Below, in pieces: positions 7,106-13,934 of a DNA stretch of 14,706 bases. How positions within the stretch are numbered: position 1 is the first letter of the stretch; the number at the start of each line of letters is the position of its first letter. The notes beneath the pieces are model-generated. The model had not been told where the DNA came from, searched no databases, and was given only the letters and a program-made list of their open reading frames with translations. Origin of the DNA: a virus; UHGV virus genome UHGV-0056970. One strand, 5' to 3'. The translations under genes were made by a program, and so were the position numbers.

Positions 7106-7738
7106 TTACCTTTTTCGCCTGTAAATTCTATGTTCGACCATTACGCCGATAATTTTCAACGGGCGTTCAGAGCTATTAATGGTGGGGTAGTCGTCATTAA
7201 GGGGGACCAGTTCATATTGCTGGCGGCCTGAAATATCGGTAAATGTAGGACGGTACTTTTTAAAAGTAGCCTCATTTTCACCATTTTTAGCAACAACAAA
7301 CTCGCCCGGAACGGGCTCTAACTCTGGATCAACAATGATAATGTCGCCTTCTTTAAAGTCAGGCTCCATTGAATCACCTTCTATCCTTAGTGCAAAAGTA
7401 AACTCAGAAATATCAAGGTCAGTCATGATGTATTCGAAGCTACCATCAAATGCATCAATAGGGTGTTTTTCTGCTAACGCCCCAGCCTGGACGTAACTGA
7501 TCAAAGGTACTTTCCTTGAATTCACATCGTCCAGAGCCATGAAAGGCCCACCGTTCATCAACCATGTTGGGTCGCACTTAAGTGCTTTGCTTATTCCTAC
7601 TATGTTGCGAGGCTTTTTAGTTTTTCCATCCTCAATGCTGGCCCATGATTGTTGCCTTATTCCTGCCTTTTCAGCTGCTTGCTCTTGAGTAAGACCAAGT
7701 TCGATTCTTTTTTGTTTTACGCGTTCTGCAAGGCTCAT
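7106..7738 (-). CDS. cI: CI/LexA-type prophage repressor (HTH_XRE N-terminal domain, S24 peptidase C-terminal domain)
   Basis: 210 aa. N-terminal HTH (LGLTQEQAAEKAGIRQQSWASIEDG). Ala-Gly cleavage-site candidate (YVQAGALA). Catalytic Ser in GDSMEP and downstream Lys (TFKKY), the Ser-Lys dyad of self-cleaving repressors. Divergent from a cro-like gene across an operator-rich intergenic region. Confidence 0.9.
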   Translation of the reverse strand: MSLAERVKQKRIELGLTQEQAAEKAGIRQQSWASIEDGKTKKPRNIVGISKALKCDPTWLMNGGPFMALDDVNSRKVPLISYVQAGALAEKHPIDAFDGSFEYIMTDLDISEFTFALRIEGDSMEPDFKEGDIIIVDPELEPVPGEFVVAKNGENEATFKKYRPTFTDISGRQQYELVPLNDDYPTINSSERPLKIIGVMVEHRIYRRKR

Positions 7739-7766
7739 AGCTCCTCCATTCCCATGGCCTCATGGT

Positions 7767-7826
7767 CACAGTTTAAACTGTGATTGACAAACAGTAGTAT
7801 CTGTTCAAAAATACAGATAAAACTGT
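7767..7826. promoter_or_regulatory. Immunity-region operators: three dyad sites (ACAG-N6-CTGT) spanning the divergent cI/cro promoters
   Basis: Site 1 7767..7782 CACAGTTTAAACTGTG (perfect 16-bp palindrome); site 2 7791..7804 ACAGTAGTATCTGT; site 3 7813..7826 ACAGATAAAACTGT. Centre-to-centre spacing about 22-23 bp. TTGACA at 7784..7789 sits between sites 1 and 2; site 3 abuts the cro RBS. Confidence 0.6.
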
Positions 7827-7835
7827 GGAGGTGTT

Positions 7836-8066
7836 ATGGAATCAATTTCTCAAAGATTAAAGAATAAACGTGAAGAGATGAATCTCTCACAAGCGCAATT
7901 GGCTGAATTGGTCGGAATGACCCAGCAGTCATTACAAGCGATCGAGGCGGGTTTAACAAAGAGACCCCGTTACATCATTGAATTGTCTTCAGCCCTGCAT
8001 TGCGATCCTCATTGGTTGCTCTATGGCGAGGGTGCTAATCAGAACGATAGCGCTTCAGGGGTGTAA
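7836..8066 (+). CDS. cro: Cro-like HTH_XRE transcriptional regulator
   Basis: 76 aa. HTH (LSQAQLAELVGMTQQSLQAIEAG) paralogous to the cI N-terminus. RBS GGAGGTG. Divergent from cI. Confidence 0.8.
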   Translation: MESISQRLKNKREEMNLSQAQLAELVGMTQQSLQAIEAGLTKRPRYIIELSSALHCDPHWLLYGEGANQNDSASGV

Positions 8067-8094: not shown

Positions 8095-8646
8095 GTGGGT
8101 ATAGAACCAGAATGGAAAGTTGATAAGCAGCCGCCTTGGCTGGTAGCTGCGATTAAAAAAACGATCACTGATTTGGACGGGGGGTATGCAGAAGCAGCTG
8201 AATGGCTTGGCGTTACTGAAAACGCATTGTTTAACCGCTTACGTGCCGATGGTGATCAAATTTTCCCTCTGGGCTGGGCAATGGTTCTACAGCGTGCTGG
8301 TGGGACGAATCATATCGCCAATGCGATAGCGCGCCACTCGAACGGGGTCTTTGTGCCGCTGGCAGACATTGAGGATGTAGACAACGCCGATATAAACCAG
8401 CGCCTGATGGAGTCTATCGAGTGGATCGGAAAGCACTCACAGTATCTCCGTAAAGCTACAGCTGACGGTGTTATTGACCAGGCAGAACGCGAGCAGATCG
8501 AGGAGAACAGTTATCAGGTGATGGCGAAATGGCAGGAACATTTGACATTGCTTTTCCGTGTCTTTTGCCAGCCAGAAAAGAGTGACGCCCGCGAGTGTGC
8601 AGCTCCGGGCGTCGTGGCGAATAAATCTTTGTGTATGGAGAAATAA
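8095..8646 (+). CDS. Phage CII-like regulatory protein (tentative)
   Basis: 183 aa directly after cro, in the position of lambdoid cII-type regulators. GTG start with RBS AGGGGG. Family assignment from memory only. Confidence 0.45.
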   Translation: MGIEPEWKVDKQPPWLVAAIKKTITDLDGGYAEAAEWLGVTENALFNRLRADGDQIFPLGWAMVLQRAGGTNHIANAIARHSNGVFVPLADIEDVDNADINQRLMESIEWIGKHSQYLRKATADGVIDQAEREQIEENSYQVMAKWQEHLTLLFRVFCQPEKSDARECAAPGVVANKSLCMEK

Positions 8647-10354: not shown

Positions 10355-10536
10355 AGAAGATTTTGATAAGTCTCCGGCGCCTTGTGCATTTGCATCACTG
10401 GCGTAACTGGTGGCAGCACGAAGTTATTTTTCGCAGAAAATATGCACTCCTCAGAAATGACCTTTTCAGCTTTGATCGCCGTTACTGGTTACTGAAAGCA
10501 CTTGTTGATGCTGATCAGCGCAGGGGAAAACTATGA
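10342..10536 (+). CDS. Hypothetical small basic protein (64 aa)
   Basis: GTG start 6 nt after GGAGG. Stop overlaps the ATG of the downstream Dam gene (ATGA), consistent with translational coupling. No recognisable family. Confidence 0.35.
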   Translation: MLRLKKILISLRRLVHLHHWRNWWQHEVIFRRKYALLRNDLFSFDRRYWLLKALVDADQRRGKL

Positions 10537-11486
10537 GTCAGGAAGTACAAGAAGCTATGACCGCAGAAGAGCAAACTTTAACAAAAACCGTCAGCCCTTA
10601 TTGCCTGGCACTTGAGGAACAGCGCCAGCGTAGTGCGCATTATTTAAAAGAAGTCGGGGATCAATGGCGTACCCCTGATCTGCTGTTCTGGGGCGTTAAC
10701 GCTATGTTTGGCCCGCTGGTACTGGACCTGTTTGCAGACGACAGCAATACAAAATGTCCGGCATGGTATACCGCTGAAGATAATGCGCTGACGCAGGACT
10801 GGTCTGGTCGTTTGGTAGAACTCGGAGGAGCGGCCTTTGCTAATCCGCCGTACAGCCGTTCGCAGTACCATGAAAAACAAGCCATCACTGGCATGACTCA
10901 TATTATGAACTATACCGCCGAGCAGTGTGAAAAGGGTGGTCGTTACATTTACCTCGTGAAGTCAGCAACAAGTGAAACATGGTGGCCGGAATATGCCGAT
11001 CACATCATGTTTATTCGTGGTCGTATTGGATTCGATCTCCCAACGTGGTTTGTGCCGGCCGACGAAAAGCAGAAGCCCACCAGCGCCTTCTTTGCCGGGG
11101 CCATTGCGGTATTTGATAAGACCTGGCGCGGTGAACATTTTAGCTATATCGATCGCGTTGAGCTGGAAGCAAAAGGGCGCGCAAGTATGGCGCTGGCTGA
11201 GTTTGCTGCAGGAAAATTCCTGTCACCAGTTTCGCCAGTTCAGTCTCCTGAAGTGATCATCCCCGATGCTGTTGCATCATTGGCTGAGCCTGAATCCCGG
11301 ATCTGGCCACTGGAAGTTGGACTCGTCTTTGGACAGGTACAAGGCGCAGAGGATCTGGAGTTCTCCCAGCAGAACAAGCTGAAGGCCCACATTAACCAGT
11401 TGTGGCTGGAGCGCGTGCCCACCAGCGAAATCATCACCGTTGCTGGTGGGCTGGTCGGCAGCATGAGGGGGACCGCTCATGCGTGA
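10533..11486 (+). CDS. Phage N6-adenine DNA methyltransferase (phage Dam family)
   Basis: 317 aa. WRTP...LDLFA...FANPPYS (NPPY catalytic motif) in the arrangement typical of phage Dam methyltransferases. Overlaps the downstream C5-methyltransferase start by 8 nt. Confidence 0.8.
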   Translation: MSQEVQEAMTAEEQTLTKTVSPYCLALEEQRQRSAHYLKEVGDQWRTPDLLFWGVNAMFGPLVLDLFADDSNTKCPAWYTAEDNALTQDWSGRLVELGGAAFANPPYSRSQYHEKQAITGMTHIMNYTAEQCEKGGRYIYLVKSATSETWWPEYADHIMFIRGRIGFDLPTWFVPADEKQKPTSAFFAGAIAVFDKTWRGEHFSYIDRVELEAKGRASMALAEFAAGKFLSPVSPVQSPEVIIPDAVASLAEPESRIWPLEVGLVFGQVQGAEDLEFSQQNKLKAHINQLWLERVPTSEIITVAGGLVGSMRGTAHA

Positions 11487-13461
11487 GATTATTGTCGATA
11501 ATTTTGCTGGTGGCGGTGGCGCCAGTACAGGTATTGAGCTGGCGATAGGGCGTAGCGTTGATATCGCGATTAACCACGATGTTAACGCCGTTGCTATGCA
11601 CCGCACTAACCATCCCGACACGCTTCACTATTGCGAAAGTGTGTTTGATGTATCCCCATTAGCCGCTACCAGTGGCAAGCCTGTCGGCCTGGCATGGTTC
11701 TCGCCTGACTGTCGTCACTTTTCTAAAGCGAAAGGTGCTAAACCAGTAGAGAAAGCTATTCGAGGGCTGGCATGGATCGTCATTCGTTGGGCGCTGGATG
11801 TTGGCCCGCGAGTCATGATGCTGGAAAACGTCGAAGAGTTTAAAACGTGGGGCCCGTTACTCGCGGCAGAAATGCGACCGGATCCGGCACGCATCGGTGA
11901 AACTTTCAATGCATTTGTCGGGATGCTTACCACCGGTATTCCAGCAGATCATCCTGCACTGGTGGAGTGTTGCGAGTTTCTGGAGTTTTCAGCGGATAGC
12001 GAGCAGGCCAAGCGCTTAATTGCCGGGCTGGGTTATGTCGTCGATTTTCGCGAGCTGCGCGCCTGCGATTATGGCGCGCCAACCATCCGTAAGCGGTTCT
12101 TCATGGTGATGCGCCGGGACGGGAAACCGATAGTCTGGCCGGAAGCCACGCACGGGGATCCGAAGTCTGCCGCCGTGCTGGCGGGCCAGCTTGAGCCGTG
12201 GCGTACAGCTGCGGAATGCATAGACTGGTCAATCCCCGCGCCGAGCATCTTCGGTCGCAAAAAGTCACTGGCAGAGAATACGCTAAAACGGATTGCCCGC
12301 GGCATTCAGCGCTTTGTTATCGAAAGTGCTTCGCCATTCATTGTGAAGTGCAATCACACAACGACACGTGGCAAATACGACTGTTTCCGGGGACAGGCGC
12401 TGGACGATCCGCTACAGACGATTACGAAAACCCACGGCTACGCAATTGCGGTACCTCATCTGACAAAATTCCGAACCGGAGCTACCGGGCAGGAAGTTAC
12501 CGATCCGTTGCCGACGGTGACGGCCGGTACCGCAAAACGCCCGGGCGGGAATGGTCACGCTCTGGGTATTGTTGAAGCAGAGCTGGCGCCGTTCCTGGCT
12601 GGCAATGGCGGCAGCGAGTACCAGGCTAAACCACGCCCGCTCGATAAACCCGCTCACACCATCCTGAAAGAATCGCGCGCCTGTGTCGTCGCTCCGGTTA
12701 TCGCCCGGCAGTTCGGCGCCAGCATCGGACACCGCGCGGATGAGCCCAGCGCAACAATCACAGCTGGTGGCGGCGGTAAATCGCAACTGGTGACGCCTAC
12801 TCTGATCCAGATGGGCTACGGCGAACGCCTAGGGCAGGAGCCGCGCGTATTAAACCTGAATAACCCACTGGGAACTGTAACCGCCGGCGGAAACAAATTC
12901 GCAACGGTGAGCGCATTTCTGGCAAAACACTACGGAGGGAATTATCAGGGCGCCGGCGTGGGGTTGGATGAGCCAGCGCATTCAGTAACGACTGTCGATC
13001 ACCACGCATTAGTCGCTTCTCATCTGGTTAAACTGCGCGGAACCTGCCGCGATGGCCAGCGCACTGACGAGCCGATGCCGACTATCACTGCCGGTGGCCA
13101 GCACGTAGGGGAGGTTAAAACGACTCTGGCGGTCGAGGACTATGACGAAGAGCGAGCGCAGCAGGTGATGGCGTTCCTGCAGGAATACTGCGGAGAAGAA
13201 TGCACCGGGCTGGTGGAAATCGGCGGAGTGACATATCGCATTGTCGACATTGGAATGCGCATGCTGCAGCCACACGAACTTTACCGGGCGCAGGGCTTCC
13301 CCGAGTGGTACATCATTGACCAGGATTACCGCGGCGTGAAATACGCGAAAGATAAGCAGGTTGCGCGCTGTGGCAATGCCGTCCCGCCGCCGTTCGCCGA
13401 AGCGCTGGTTCGCGCCAACTTACCCGAAATGTGCGTGAACAGAGAGGAGCAGGCAGCATGA
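11479..13461 (+). CDS. DNA (cytosine-5) methyltransferase with an unusually long variable region
   Basis: 660 aa. Motif I FAGGGG (res 9-14), catalytic Pro-Cys motif region FSPDCRHFS, motif VI LENVEEF, C-terminal QGFPEWY and GNAVPPPF. About 370 aa lie between the N-terminal catalytic motifs and the C-terminal motifs. Confidence 0.85.
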   Translation: MREIIVDNFAGGGGASTGIELAIGRSVDIAINHDVNAVAMHRTNHPDTLHYCESVFDVSPLAATSGKPVGLAWFSPDCRHFSKAKGAKPVEKAIRGLAWIVIRWALDVGPRVMMLENVEEFKTWGPLLAAEMRPDPARIGETFNAFVGMLTTGIPADHPALVECCEFLEFSADSEQAKRLIAGLGYVVDFRELRACDYGAPTIRKRFFMVMRRDGKPIVWPEATHGDPKSAAVLAGQLEPWRTAAECIDWSIPAPSIFGRKKSLAENTLKRIARGIQRFVIESASPFIVKCNHTTTRGKYDCFRGQALDDPLQTITKTHGYAIAVPHLTKFRTGATGQEVTDPLPTVTAGTAKRPGGNGHALGIVEAELAPFLAGNGGSEYQAKPRPLDKPAHTILKESRACVVAPVIARQFGASIGHRADEPSATITAGGGGKSQLVTPTLIQMGYGERLGQEPRVLNLNNPLGTVTAGGNKFATVSAFLAKHYGGNYQGAGVGLDEPAHSVTTVDHHALVASHLVKLRGTCRDGQRTDEPMPTITAGGQHVGEVKTTLAVEDYDEERAQQVMAFLQEYCGEECTGLVEIGGVTYRIVDIGMRMLQPHELYRAQGFPEWYIIDQDYRGVKYAKDKQVARCGNAVPPPFAEALVRANLPEMCVNREEQAA

Positions 13462-13934
13462 CTTCCTTGACCTTAAGGCAGCAGGAGGTACTGGACCTCC
13501 TGATCGAATATCAGCGTAAACATGGTTTTCCGCCTACAACTTACGAACTGACCATCATGCTGGGGTGCCGGTCCCCCAATGCAGCAGCAACGCACCTCAA
13601 GGCGTTGGAGAAAAAGGGTGTTATCACAATCACCCGCGGGGTTTCTCGCGGTATCAGTATCACCCCTTCGCTGCTGGCCAGAGAAATATCGGTCAATCTC
13701 AACAGCATCGTAAAAGTGAAACTTAATGAAGTTTCCCTCAGACATTTGGAAAAACAACACGAGCAGAATCGAATCCAGCACCCGAGGATCTTCGGGGACT
13801 TTTCGCCCCCGATAACAGACGAAAATGGCTATACGTCAATGACCCTGTGGAGCCTTATGTCCGACCTTGGCCCGCTCTGCTATTGCGGAGGAGATGTTCC
13901 GTTTGAGTTGAAAATAGTGCTGGAGGCAGAATGA
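13458..13934 (+). CDS. LexA DNA-binding-domain protein lacking the S24 peptidase domain
   Basis: ATG at 13458 (RBS GAGAGGAG; ATGA overlap with the methyltransferase stop). The N-terminal 70 aa (LTLRQQEVLDLLIEYQRKHGFPPTTYELTIMLGCRSPNAAATHLKALEKKGVITI) closely resemble the E. coli LexA N-terminal domain. The C-terminal 90 aa have no Ala-Gly / Ser-Lys autocleavage features. Confidence 0.6.
   Translation: MTSLTLRQQEVLDLLIEYQRKHGFPPTTYELTIMLGCRSPNAAATHLKALEKKGVITITRGVSRGISITPSLLAREISVNLNSIVKVKLNEVSLRHLEKQHEQNRIQHPRIFGDFSPPITDENGYTSMTLWSLMSDLGPLCYCGGDVPFELKIVLEAE

What the first reader, a model, noticed from the sequence alone, without database searches (positions are those of the whole stretch)
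7767..7826. Tripartite operator with ACAG-N6-CTGT dyads; operator juxtaposition creates a LexA-box-like CTGT-N8-ACAG
Three dyad sites, one a perfect 16-bp palindrome, are spaced about two helical turns apart between divergent cI and cro, and a fourth identical copy sits at the PL-like promoter. That gives a lambda-like OR/OL logic with a different half-site. Sites 2 and 3 together form CTGTTCAAAAATACAG (7801..7816), which fits the SOS-box pattern CTGT-N8-ACAG and could be bound by host LexA or by the phage LexA-DBD protein at 13458..13934.
Basis: partly seen in the sequence, partly recalled or inferred. Interest (0 to 1): 0.45.

Follow-up and report, generated by a model that had tools for sequence, protein, structure and literature searches.

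The report
Phage 434-type operators with ACAG half-sites
This is the on/off switch of a dormant virus in a gut-type bacterium, built exactly like the textbook phage 434 switch but with one changed letter in each repressor binding site. The resemblance to a host LexA site is most likely a side effect of that layout.

Summary
ACAG-N6-CTGT occurs four times in the window against 0.10 expected: three times between divergent cI and cro, and once at the leftward promoter.

The region is a phage 434-type right operator. The cI and Cro DNA-binding domains align without gaps to 434 repressor and 434 Cro. The DNA aligns base for base with the real 434 OR: OR3, N9 holding the -35 TTGACA, OR2, N8 holding the -10, then OR1. 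The only systematic change is operator position 4, ACAA to ACAG. It goes with Gln33 to Ser/Ala in the repressor recognition helix in all 17 relatives and in Hafnia phage Meifeng.

CTGT-N8-ACAG is there and covers the PR -10, but it follows from the inherited 434 spacing plus the position-4 change. Its LexA heterology index is 13.44, which is borderline. That equals the expectation once the operator cores and the -10 are fixed (13.9 ± 3.0). Relatives range from 10.0 to 18.2, and one has N9 and no box.

The phage LexA-DBD gene is absent from 16 heterologous relatives and travels with a methylase module. cI keeps the Ala-Gly, Ser and Lys autocleavage motifs, so no LexA input is needed.

Verdict: an ordinary switch and a new immunity type of a known kind.

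The parts
7106..7738 (-). cI repressor, 210 aa: a 434-like HTH domain plus an S24 autopeptidase domain
   Evidence: Pfam HTH_3 and Peptidase_S24. It is 41% identical to 434 cI over the full length. The DNA-binding domain aligns without gaps to 1per (E 1.5e-12). The Ala-Gly, GDSM and TFKK motifs are kept.
7836..8066 (+). cro, 76 aa, 434 Cro-like
   Evidence: HTH_3. It aligns without gaps to 434 Cro, 1zug/3cro (E 5e-19).
7766..7783 (.). The core ACAGTTTAAACTGT is at 7768-7781, inside an 18-bp perfect palindrome. It fills the spacer of the inferred PRM.
   Evidence: It aligns to 434 OR3, ACAAGAAAAACTGT. Half-sites are conserved and the centre varies across relatives.
7791..7804 (.). OR2 equivalent (site 2), ACAGTAGTATCTGT. 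It lies in the 17-bp spacer of PR and abuts the PRM -35.
7813..7826 (.). OR1 equivalent (site 3), ACAGATAAAACTGT. It starts immediately after the PR -10 and covers the expected transcription start.
   Evidence: It is ACAGATAAAACTGT in most relatives and varies only in the central 6 bp in the Pantoea, Erwinia tracheiphila and Proteus loci. It is identical to OL1.
7784..7812 (+). PR promoter: -35 TTGACA at 7784-7789, a 17-bp spacer, and -10 AAAAAT at 7807-7812
   Evidence: Promoter scan, 10 of 12 matches. The -35 is invariant in most relatives and in 434.
7762..7790 (-). Inferred PRM: -35 TTGTCA at 7790-7785, a 17-bp spacer that is OR3, and -10 GACCAT at 7767-7762. It sits back to back with PR.
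   Evidence: This is an inference from reading the sequence. The same layout is present in 434 (-10 GAAGAT). The xAxxAT hexamer just outside OR3 is kept in every relative whose OR3 flank I read (10 of the related loci, plus 434). The consensus scan did not report it, as expected for an activator-dependent promoter.
7799..7818 (.). LexA-box-like 20-mer ATCTGTTCAAAAATACAGAT, with core CTGT-N8-ACAG at 7801-7816. It is made of the right half of OR2, the PR -10 and the left half of OR1.
   Evidence: HI 13.44. The null expectation is 13.87 ± 2.95.
6968..6981 (.). OL1, ACAGATAAAACTGT, in the spacer of PL
   Evidence: A site is present at the equivalent place in most relatives.
6992..7005 (.). OL2 candidate, ACATACAAAGCTGT, with one mismatch. 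It starts 24 bp from the start of OL1 and touches the PL -35.
   Evidence: Most relatives have a site, usually exact, at the same +24 offset.
7023..7036 (.). Degenerate OL3 candidate, ACTAAAAAAACTGT, with two mismatches
   Evidence: Several relatives carry a one-mismatch site at +30/+31 from OL2. In the window the assignment rests on reading the sequence and is weak.
6963..6992 (-). PL promoter: -35 TTGACG at 6992-6987, an 18-bp spacer, and -10 TATTAT at 6968-6963
   Evidence: Promoter scan, 10 of 12 matches.
7072..7091 (-). Intrinsic terminator-like hairpin downstream of cI
8095..8646 (+). cII-like activator, the next gene of the PR operon
   Evidence: PF06892 and phrog_101.
13458..13934 (+). 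Phage protein with a LexA DNA-binding domain and no S24 domain. It belongs to a separate methylase-linked module and is not shown to be part of the switch.
   Evidence: PF01726 E 7e-20. 1lea E 9e-17.

Best explanation
The region 7762-7835 is the right operator of a prophage with a phage 434-type immunity region. The host is probably Klebsiella.

**Layout.** Three 14-bp operators, ACAG-N6-CTGT, are read by the cI repressor and by Cro.
- OR1 (7813-7826) and OR2 (7791-7804) bracket and fill the PR promoter. cI bound there shuts off cro and the lytic early genes.
- OR2 abuts the -35 of the back-to-back PRM, so cI there is placed to activate its own gene.
- OR3 (7768-7781) fills the PRM spacer. Cro, or excess cI, bound there turns cI synthesis off.
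- OL1, OL2 and a degenerate OL3 control the leftward promoter in the same way.

**Induction.** It goes through RecA-stimulated self-cleavage of cI, which keeps the Ala-Gly site and the Ser/Lys dyad.

**Difference from 434.** Operator position 4 is G·C instead of A·T. This goes with a small residue (Ser or Ala) in place of Gln33 in the repressor recognition helix, and Ala in place of Leu35 in Cro. That defines a separate immunity specificity.

**The LexA-like motif.** CTGT-N8-ACAG follows automatically from the 434 spacing. In 434, OR2 and OR1 are 8 bp apart because the gap holds the -10 hexamer. Once the half-site ends in G, the junction reads CTGT-N8-ACAG.

**Shown versus inferred.** Shown: the sites, their conservation, the protein homology, the geometry and the promoter matches. 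Inferred: who binds where, cooperativity, PRM activation, and the role of residue 33.
For: - **Site enrichment.** 4 exact sites against 0.10 expected.
- **Genes.** cI has HTH and S24 domains, cro has an HTH domain, and a cII-like gene follows downstream.
- **Protein homology.** Ungapped alignments to 434 repressor and 434 Cro structures (E 1.5e-12 and 5e-19). cI is 41% identical to 434 cI over the full length, with the cleavage motifs kept.
- **DNA alignment with phage 434 OR.** The order is the same: OR3, N9 with TTGACA, OR2, N8 with the -10, then OR1.
- **Promoters.** PR and PL consensus promoters are placed on the operators.
- **Relatives.** 16 heterologous relatives from about 10 genera have cI 62-89% identical. 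They keep the outer ACAG/CTGT and the spacing while the central 6 bp vary, and they carry OL sites about 770 bp away.
- **Covariation.** Helix 3 reads QQ(S/T)W(A/Q/G)(S/A) in all 17 ACAG-type repressors and QQSIAS in Meifeng. It reads QQ(S/A)I(E/Q)Q in the ACAA-type phages 434, RCIP0034 and S.Inf 5-2.
- **LexA-like box is not special.** HI is 13.44 against a constrained null of 13.87 ± 2.95. Relatives span 10.0-18.2, and L015 has N9.
Against: - No binding data exist for this repressor. The operator assignment rests on homology and conservation.
- PRM is only a weak match (-10 GACCAT) and the consensus scan did not find it.
- The contact made by 434 Gln33 at position 4 is recalled from the 434 co-crystal literature, not tested here. 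The only support from a paper read here is the general statement that inner operator positions are read through thymine methyl groups (PMC3317979).
- An HI of 13.44 does not exclude weak LexA binding.
Confidence: 0.85

Rival explanations
1. Host LexA binds CTGTTCAAAAATACAG over the PR -10 and acts as a second repressor of the lytic promoter that is also released by the SOS response. This could happen, for example, in newly infected cells before cI accumulates.
For: - The core CTGT-N8-ACAG is present and sits exactly on the -10, as in genuine SOS boxes.
- HI 13.44 falls just inside the cluster that PSOSP's Mean Shift method calls LexA-binding. The last binding value is 13.60 and the first non-binding value is 13.95.
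- The pattern is kept in 15 of 17 related loci, and some are better boxes: L006 at 10.0 and Proteus loci at 10.7.
Against: - The HI is what the operator cores plus the -10 give by themselves (null 13.87 ± 2.95; observed mean of 10 distinct relatives 13.17).
- HI ranges up to 18.2 in close relatives, and L015 has N9 with all three operators intact.
- More than half of the penalty comes from the flanks AT...AT, which belong to the OR2 and OR1 centres. The OR1 centre AT is kept in most relatives.
- The site overlaps OR2 and OR1, so LexA and cI would exclude each other.
- cI has its own RecA-dependent cleavage motifs, so SOS input needs no LexA.
Confidence: 0.09
2. The phage-encoded LexA-DBD protein (13458-13934) binds the CTGT-N8-ACAG junction, or the CTGT half-sites, and modulates the switch.
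For: - The protein has a bona fide LexA DNA-binding domain (E 7e-20; ungapped to E. coli LexA residues 1-68), with helix 3 SPNAAATHLKAL against SPNAAEEHLKAL.
- The OR junction is the best LexA-like site in the window.
- In prophages with the identical cI, the gene is called in 6 of the 8 loci shown.
Against: - The gene is absent from the flanks of all 16 heterologous relatives that keep the operators and the N8 junction.
- It occurs in SfV, SfIV, mEp460 and Stx2 phages with unrelated immunity regions, always beside methylase genes.
- It lacks the LexA dimerisation and S24 domain, so its site spacing is unknown.
- Glu44-Glu45 of LexA are Ala-Thr here. From memory, Glu45 is a base-contacting residue.
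- Its co-occurrence with the identical cI reflects near-identical prophages, not independent association.
Confidence: 0.04
3. The dyads are chance or low-complexity repeats with no regulatory role.
For: None beyond the AT-richness of the region.
Against: - 0 of 200 shuffles gave more than one site, against 4 observed.
- Half-sites and spacing are conserved while the centres diverge, across about 10 genera.
- The region aligns base for base with the experimentally defined 434 operators.
Confidence: 0.01

Closest known systems
Phage 434 right and left operators with 434 cI and 434 Cro (structures 2OR1, 1PER, 1RPE, 3CRO)
   Same: - The cI and Cro DNA-binding domains are homologous, and the QQS start of helix 3 is kept.
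- The operators are 14 bp, with conserved outer 4 bp and a variable centre that 434 repressor does not contact.
- The order and spacing are identical: OR3, N9 with -35 TTGACA, OR2, N8 with the -10, then OR1.
- PR and PRM sit back to back.
- OL sites lie at the leftward promoter.
- cI carries an S24 autocleavage domain.
   Different: - The half-site is ACAG rather than ACAA. In 434, ACAG occurs only in one half of OR3.
- Gln33 becomes Ser in cI, and Leu35 becomes Ala in Cro.
- cI is only 41% identical overall, so this is expected to be a separate immunity type.
- The junction reads CTGT-N8-ACAG instead of TTGT-N8-ACAA.
Lambda OR/OL switch
   Same: It has a tripartite OR between divergent cI and cro, OL at PL, and RecA-mediated cI cleavage. 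The C-terminal domain is homologous (3bdn, E 1.9e-14).
   Different: Lambda has 17-bp operators of unrelated sequence and a Cro with a different fold. The spacing differs.
E. coli-type LexA SOS box (TACTGTATATATATACAGTA) and LexA-controlled phage promoters such as CTXphi rstA, GIL01 P1 and coliphage 186 tum
   Same: The CTGT-N8-ACAG core has an AT-rich spacer and overlaps a -10.
   Different: - HI is 13.44, at the boundary of known functional sites.
- The flanks are AT/AT instead of TA/TA.
- There is no enrichment for LexA-preferred bases beyond the operator and promoter constraints.
- The box is not conserved in strength or even in spacing among relatives.
- The listed phage examples are recalled from memory. 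Only GIL01 appeared in a search here (PMC4551915).
Hafnia phage vB_HpaM_Meifeng and the CobraSix / ST16-OXA48phi5.2 / vB_YenM_29.18 immunity regions
   Same: They share the ACAG-N6-CTGT triple operator and a Ser or Ala at the Gln33 position.
   Different: These are genome records only, annotated simply as repressor and Cro. No paper in the searchable library mentions these operator sequences. Meifeng's repressor has a different C-terminal domain.

Membership tests
434-type lambdoid immunity switch (OR/OL with cI and Cro) | Divergent cI (HTH plus S24 peptidase) and cro (HTH) genes flank a short intergenic region | tested here: met
   Pfam domains. The intergenic region is 97 bp, 7739-7835.
434-type lambdoid immunity switch (OR/OL with cI and Cro) | The DNA-binding domains are homologous to 434 repressor and 434 Cro | tested here: met
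   Ungapped phmmer alignments to 1per (E 1.5e-12) and 1zug (E 5e-19). BLASTP against 434 cI gives 41% identity, E 1e-38.
434-type lambdoid immunity switch (OR/OL with cI and Cro) | Three 14-bp dyad operators with conserved outer 4 bp and a variable centre | tested here: met
   Of the 17 loci, 16 carry three such sites and one (L013) carries two.
434-type lambdoid immunity switch (OR/OL with cI and Cro) | Same geometry relative to the promoters as 434: OR3, N9 with the -35, OR2, N8 with the -10, then OR1 | tested here: met
   Alignment with OL657227 and the promoter scan.
434-type lambdoid immunity switch (OR/OL with cI and Cro) | Operators of the same type at a leftward promoter (OL) | tested here: met
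   OL1 is exact and OL2 has one mismatch at the PL consensus promoter. The same holds in relatives.
434-type lambdoid immunity switch (OR/OL with cI and Cro) | Repressor carries the RecA-dependent autocleavage motifs: Ala-Gly, Ser and Lys | tested here: met
   QAG, GDSM and TFKK align with the lambda and 434 motifs.
434-type lambdoid immunity switch (OR/OL with cI and Cro) | Repressor and Cro actually bind these sites, with cooperative OR1-OR2 binding and PRM activation | not testable with these tools
   This needs footprinting, EMSA or reporter assays.
Immunity group of phage 434 itself (homoimmune with 434) | Half-site is ACAA and the recognition helix is QQSIEQ | tested here: not met
   The half-site is ACAG in all four exact sites, and helix 3 is QQSWAS. 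Heteroimmunity is therefore expected.
LexA SOS box (Enterobacteriaceae type) | A CTGT-N8-ACAG (CTG-N10-CAG) core | tested here: met
   7801-7816.
LexA SOS box (Enterobacteriaceae type) | Heterology index within the range of sites that bind LexA | tested here: inconclusive
   HI is 13.44. The matrix was recovered exactly from PSOSP Table S1 (rms 0). The boundary lies between 13.60 and 13.95.
LexA SOS box (Enterobacteriaceae type) | Position overlaps a promoter | tested here: met
   It covers the PR -10 at 7807-7812.
LexA SOS box (Enterobacteriaceae type) | Box quality is conserved or better than expected from other constraints, which would show selection for LexA binding | tested here: not met
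   The null with cores, -10 and OR1 centre fixed gives 13.87 ± 2.95, and 45% of draws are at or below 13.44. Relatives span 10.0-18.2, and L015 has N9.
LexA SOS box (Enterobacteriaceae type) | LexA binds the site and regulates the promoter | not testable with these tools
   This needs EMSA, or a reporter compared in lexA(Def) and lexA+ hosts.
LexA family repressor (for the ORF at 13458-13934) | N-terminal LexA winged-helix DNA-binding domain | tested here: met
   PF01726 E 7e-20. 1lea E 9e-17, aligned residues 1-68.
LexA family repressor (for the ORF at 13458-13934) | C-terminal S24 peptidase and dimerisation domain | tested here: not met
   There is no Peptidase_S24 hit. The C-terminal half matches only hypothetical proteins of Bacillus and Vibrio phages.
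LexA family repressor (for the ORF at 13458-13934) | Association with this operator type across phages | tested here: not met
   There is no tblastn hit in the 16 heterologous relatives. The gene is found with other immunity regions next to dam methylase genes.

The most novel reading that the evidence does not exclude
A one-base change in operator specificity in the 434 lineage (ACAA to ACAG) turned the OR2/-10/OR1 junction into an SOS-box core. Under this reading, host LexA binds the PR -10 in this phage and in its better-scoring relatives (HI 10-12) when cI is absent. The lysis-lysogeny decision at infection would then sense the host's SOS state directly, through a second repressor. The phage's non-cleavable LexA-DBD protein might compete at the same site.
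Probability: 0.08. Interest if true: 0.55.

Novelty: new member of a known kind. Interest (0 to 1): 0.27.

Why it matters
**What it offers.** This is a natural relative of the best-studied HTH-operator pair, phage 434. One contacted base pair (position 4, A·T to G·C) and one recognition-helix residue (Gln33 to Ser or Ala) change together across about 10 genera. That gives a clean and testable case of how immunity specificities diverge while the switch architecture stays fixed. The exact cI protein is indexed in hundreds of blocks of the assembly collection.

**A practical caution.** Tools that classify prophages by scanning promoters for low-HI LexA boxes, such as PSOSP, will score this family as borderline positive for a structural reason that has nothing to do with LexA.

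**Overall.** Apart from these two points, the locus is an ordinary lambdoid switch.

Tried and rejected
- **Rfam.** A scan of the whole window found no family, so the conserved 6877-6957 leader stays unexplained. Folding it as minus-strand RNA was no better than shuffles (z -0.8).
- **E. coli genomes.** Megablast of the immunity region found only the conserved leader, not the cI/cro module. This immunity type is therefore absent, or below megablast sensitivity, in the E. coli complete-genome set.
- **Literature, operator sequences.** A search for the operator sequences and for the related phage names found only genome papers and one chance hit in a citrus marker paper.
- **Literature, contact residues.** Two look-ups for the 434 Gln28/29/33 contacts and the LexA Glu45 contact returned nothing usable. 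Those contacts are cited from memory.
- **Other LexA-like sites.** I looked for better ones in the window as targets for LexA or the LexA-DBD protein. The next best are 6576 (HI 13.67, just outside the 3' end of the leftward 77-aa ORF) and 180 (HI 15.2). Neither is at a promoter.
- **Selection against LexA binding.** I considered this because the 434 junction with A4 changed to G in silico would score HI 6.67. I rejected it as unsupported: the observed HIs match the null, and Meifeng has CTGTAT with HI 12.0.
- **First script.** It failed because all loci are stored in one FASTA file. It was rerun successfully.

Full report
**1. Observation**

The sequence between 7739 and 7835 separates a leftward ORF (7106-7738) from a rightward ORF (7836-8066).

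The pattern ACAG-N6-CTGT occurs exactly four times in the 14.7-kb window: at 6968, 7768, 7791 and 7813. The expectation is 0.10, and no shuffle out of 200 gave more than one match.

The three intergenic sites have centres 23 and 22 bp apart. Site 1 is an 18-bp perfect palindrome, TCACAGTTTAAACTGTGA at 7766-7783, which is longer than the 16 bp reported. The copy at 6968 matches site 3 over 17 nt.

CTGT-N8-ACAG occurs at 7801-7816. A second match at 12381 lies inside a methylase gene and has a GC-rich spacer.

**2. What the genes are**

- The leftward ORF has HTH_3 and Peptidase_S24 domains. The rightward ORF has HTH_3 only. The next rightward gene is cII-like.
- Against solved structures, both DNA-binding domains align without gaps to phage 434 proteins. 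cI matches 434 repressor (1per, E 1.5e-12) and 434 Cro. Cro matches 434 Cro (1zug/3cro, E 5e-19) and 434 repressor.
- Full-length cI is 41% identical to 434 cI (E 1e-38). It keeps the Ala-Gly cleavage site (QAG), the GDSM serine and the TFKK lysine. These also align with the same motifs in lambda cI.
- RecA-stimulated self-cleavage of cI is therefore the expected route of induction. This is an inference from the conserved motifs.

**3. Architecture**

A consensus scan places PR at -35 TTGACA (7784-7789) and -10 AAAAAT (7807-7812). It places a leftward PL at -35 TTGACG (6992-6987) and -10 TATTAT (6968-6963). Both match 10 of 12 positions.

I fetched the real phage 434 immunity region (OL657227) and aligned it. 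The two regions align base for base:

- 434: TCACAAGAAAAACTGT-ATTTGACAA-ACAAGATACATTGT-ATGAAAAT-ACAAGAAAGTTTGT
- window: TCACAGTTTAAACTGT-GATTGACAA-ACAGTAGTATCTGT-TCAAAAAT-ACAGATAAAACTGT

The 9-bp gap holds the shared -35, and the 8-bp gap holds the PR -10.

On the other strand, TTGTCA (7790-7785), then 17 nt that are OR3, then GACCAT (7767-7762), reproduce the 434 layout TTGTCA-17-GAAGAT. An xAxxAT hexamer is kept just outside OR3 in every relative whose OR3 flank I read (10 of the related loci, plus 434; sequences). I assign this as PRM by inference. The scan did not call it, as expected for an activator-dependent promoter.

At PL, OL1 (exact) lies in the spacer. OL2 (ACATACAAAGCTGT, one mismatch) starts 24 bp further on and touches the -35. 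A degenerate third site follows at +31.

**4. Comparative evidence**

Phage records gave three relatives: CobraSix, ST16-OXA48phi5.2 and vB_YenM_29.18. A scan of species-representative genomes gave 13 more, with cI 62-89% identical to the window's. They come from Mangrovibacter, Citrobacter, Pseudescherichia, Enterobacter, Pantoea, Tatumella, Erwinia, Proteus and Yersinia.

In these loci the outer ACAG and CTGT and the spacing are kept, while the central six bases vary. OR1 is ACAGATAAAACTGT in most of them. One to three further sites lie about 770 bp downstream of the cI start, which is the OL position. Exact sites are almost absent elsewhere in the 16-kb loci. This is the signature of operators read at the outer four base pairs, as in 434.

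The recognition helix covaries with operator position 4:

| Operator type | Helix 3 | Phages |
|---|---|---|
| ACAG | QQ(S/T)W(A/Q/G)(S/A) | all 17 loci of this group |
| ACAG | QQSIAS | Hafnia phage Meifeng, which has a different C-terminal domain |
| ACAA | QQ(S/A)I(E/Q)Q | 434, Klebsiella phage RCIP0034, Salmonella phage S.Inf 5-2 |

The residue that differs is the equivalent of 434 Gln33. From memory of the 434 co-crystal structures, this residue lies over base pair 4. A paper read here states that inner operator positions of such repressors are specified through the thymine methyl group (PMC3317979), and a G·C pair lacks that group. The link between residue 33 and position 4 is an inference supported by the covariation.

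The exact cI protein is listed in 641 blocks of the assembly collection, on 5.2-5.9 Mb chromosomes. The 97-bp intergenic region (7739-7835) is identical, or differs by one or two bases, in the eight loci read. Parts of the window are 98-99% identical to Klebsiella phage Kp4866-6. The host is therefore probably Klebsiella.

**5. The LexA-like box**

The heterology index (HI) is additive over positions. I recovered its matrix exactly, with residual zero, by regression on 140 sequence/HI pairs from Table S1 of PMC12527982. That table reproduces the classical values, such as recA 4.31 and sulA 4.65.

The 20-mer ATCTGTTCAAAAATACAGAT scores 13.44. It is the best site in the window, but it sits at the boundary. 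In that table the last site clustered as LexA-binding has HI 13.60 and the first non-binding site has 13.95. More than half of the penalty (7.6 of 13.4) comes from the AT/AT flanks, which are the centres of OR2 and OR1.

I tested whether the score needs LexA to explain it. I fixed only the CTGT and ACAG cores, the xAxxAT of a -10 hexamer and the OR1 centre AT, and drew the remaining bases from the local composition. This gives HI 13.87 ± 2.95, and 45% of draws score at or below 13.44.

Ten distinct relatives average 13.17 and range from 10.0 to 18.2. L015 keeps all three operators but has a 9-bp gap, so it has no box at all. The 8-bp gap is already present in 434, where it reads TTGT-N8-ACAA.

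The box is therefore explained by the inherited spacing plus the position-4 change. There is no sign of selection for LexA binding. Weak LexA binding cannot be excluded. If it occurs, it would compete with cI at OR2 and OR1.

**6. The phage LexA-DBD protein**

- The ORF at 13458-13934 has a genuine LexA DNA-binding domain (PF01726, E 7e-20; ungapped to E. coli LexA residues 1-68). Helix 3 is SPNAAATHLKAL against SPNAAEEHLKAL in LexA. There is no S24 domain.
- tblastn finds no copy in the 16 heterologous relatives of the immunity region.
- The DNA-binding domain does occur in SfV (orf42), SfIV, mEp460 and Stx2 phages, beside dam methylase genes and with unrelated immunity regions.
- It accompanies the identical cI only in near-identical prophages.
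- There is therefore no comparative link between this protein and the operators, and its target is unknown.

**7. Comparison with known systems and novelty**

The system works like the phage 434 switch and belongs to that family by every sequence feature I could test. The exception is the half-site, so it is not in the 434 immunity group.

No paper in the searchable library contains these operator sequences. The related phages appear only in genome surveys.

I classify it as a new member, meaning a new immunity specificity, of a known kind. Interest is modest. It is a tidy natural specificity switch. It is also a caution for HI-based prophage classifiers.

**8. Leads that went nowhere**

- Rfam found nothing in the window.
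- The conserved leader at 6877-6957 does not fold better than shuffles.
- Two literature look-ups for contact residues were empty.
- E. coli complete genomes lack this cI/cro module at megablast sensitivity.

Noticed in passing
window 6877-6957: An ~80-nt non-coding stretch lies between PL and the first leftward ORF (6626-6859). It is 89-99% identical in 1385 E. coli genome records and in many unrelated temperate phages, including ST64B, ZF40, mEp237, SEN34, phiNP and YeP1-3, and it is never annotated. It has no Rfam family, and its minus-strand RNA fold is no better than shuffles (z -0.8). It is far more conserved than the neighbouring genes, and I cannot explain it. It may be a PL leader or a protein-binding element.
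   Followed up: partly
window 13458-13934: A LexA DNA-binding domain (aa 1-68) is fused to a ~90-aa C-terminal domain. The only phage matches to that domain are hypothetical proteins of Bacillus SPbeta-like/SBSphiJ phages and Vibrio phages. In SfV, SfIV, mEp460 and the Stx2 phages only the N-terminal ~70 aa of the protein finds a match. The gene always sits downstream of Dam/DNA methylase genes. Its function is unknown.
   Followed up: partly
L057 901-959 (Hafnia phage vB_HpaM_Meifeng, MW749008): It has the same ACAG-N6-CTGT triple operator, mirrored, with 22- and 23-bp spacing. The repressor's helix 3 is QQSIAS, but its C-terminal domain differs from the window's cI. Its junction CTGTATTGTTCTACAG has HI 12.0.
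   Followed up: partly
L055 (Klebsiella phage RCIP0034) and L056 (Salmonella phage S.Inf 5-2), cI/cro intergenic regions: These 434-like switches have ACAA-type sites and helix 3 QQAIQQ. They support the rule that Gln at the 434 position 33 goes with A at operator position 4, and Ser or Ala goes with G.
   Followed up: partly
L007 (Enterobacter MAG) versus window 7739-7767: In this relative, OR3 starts about 64 bp further from the cI start codon than in the window, so PRM would have a longer leader. Another relative, L013 (Proteus columbae), has lost one of the three operators.
   Followed up: no
window 6626-6859 and L050-L052 8880-9675: The slot between cI and the PL operon varies among prophages with the identical cI. 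Some carry a 77-aa ORF of unknown function (phrog_12911), and others carry a SieB-like superinfection-exclusion gene on the opposite strand.
   Followed up: no
window 10533-13461: Two adjacent DNA methyltransferase-like genes occupy this stretch, with Dam/PAPS-reductase-like and DNA_methylase hits. They are 317 and 660 aa and lie in the early-right operon directly upstream of the LexA-DBD gene. Together the two genes take up about 20% of the window.
   Followed up: no
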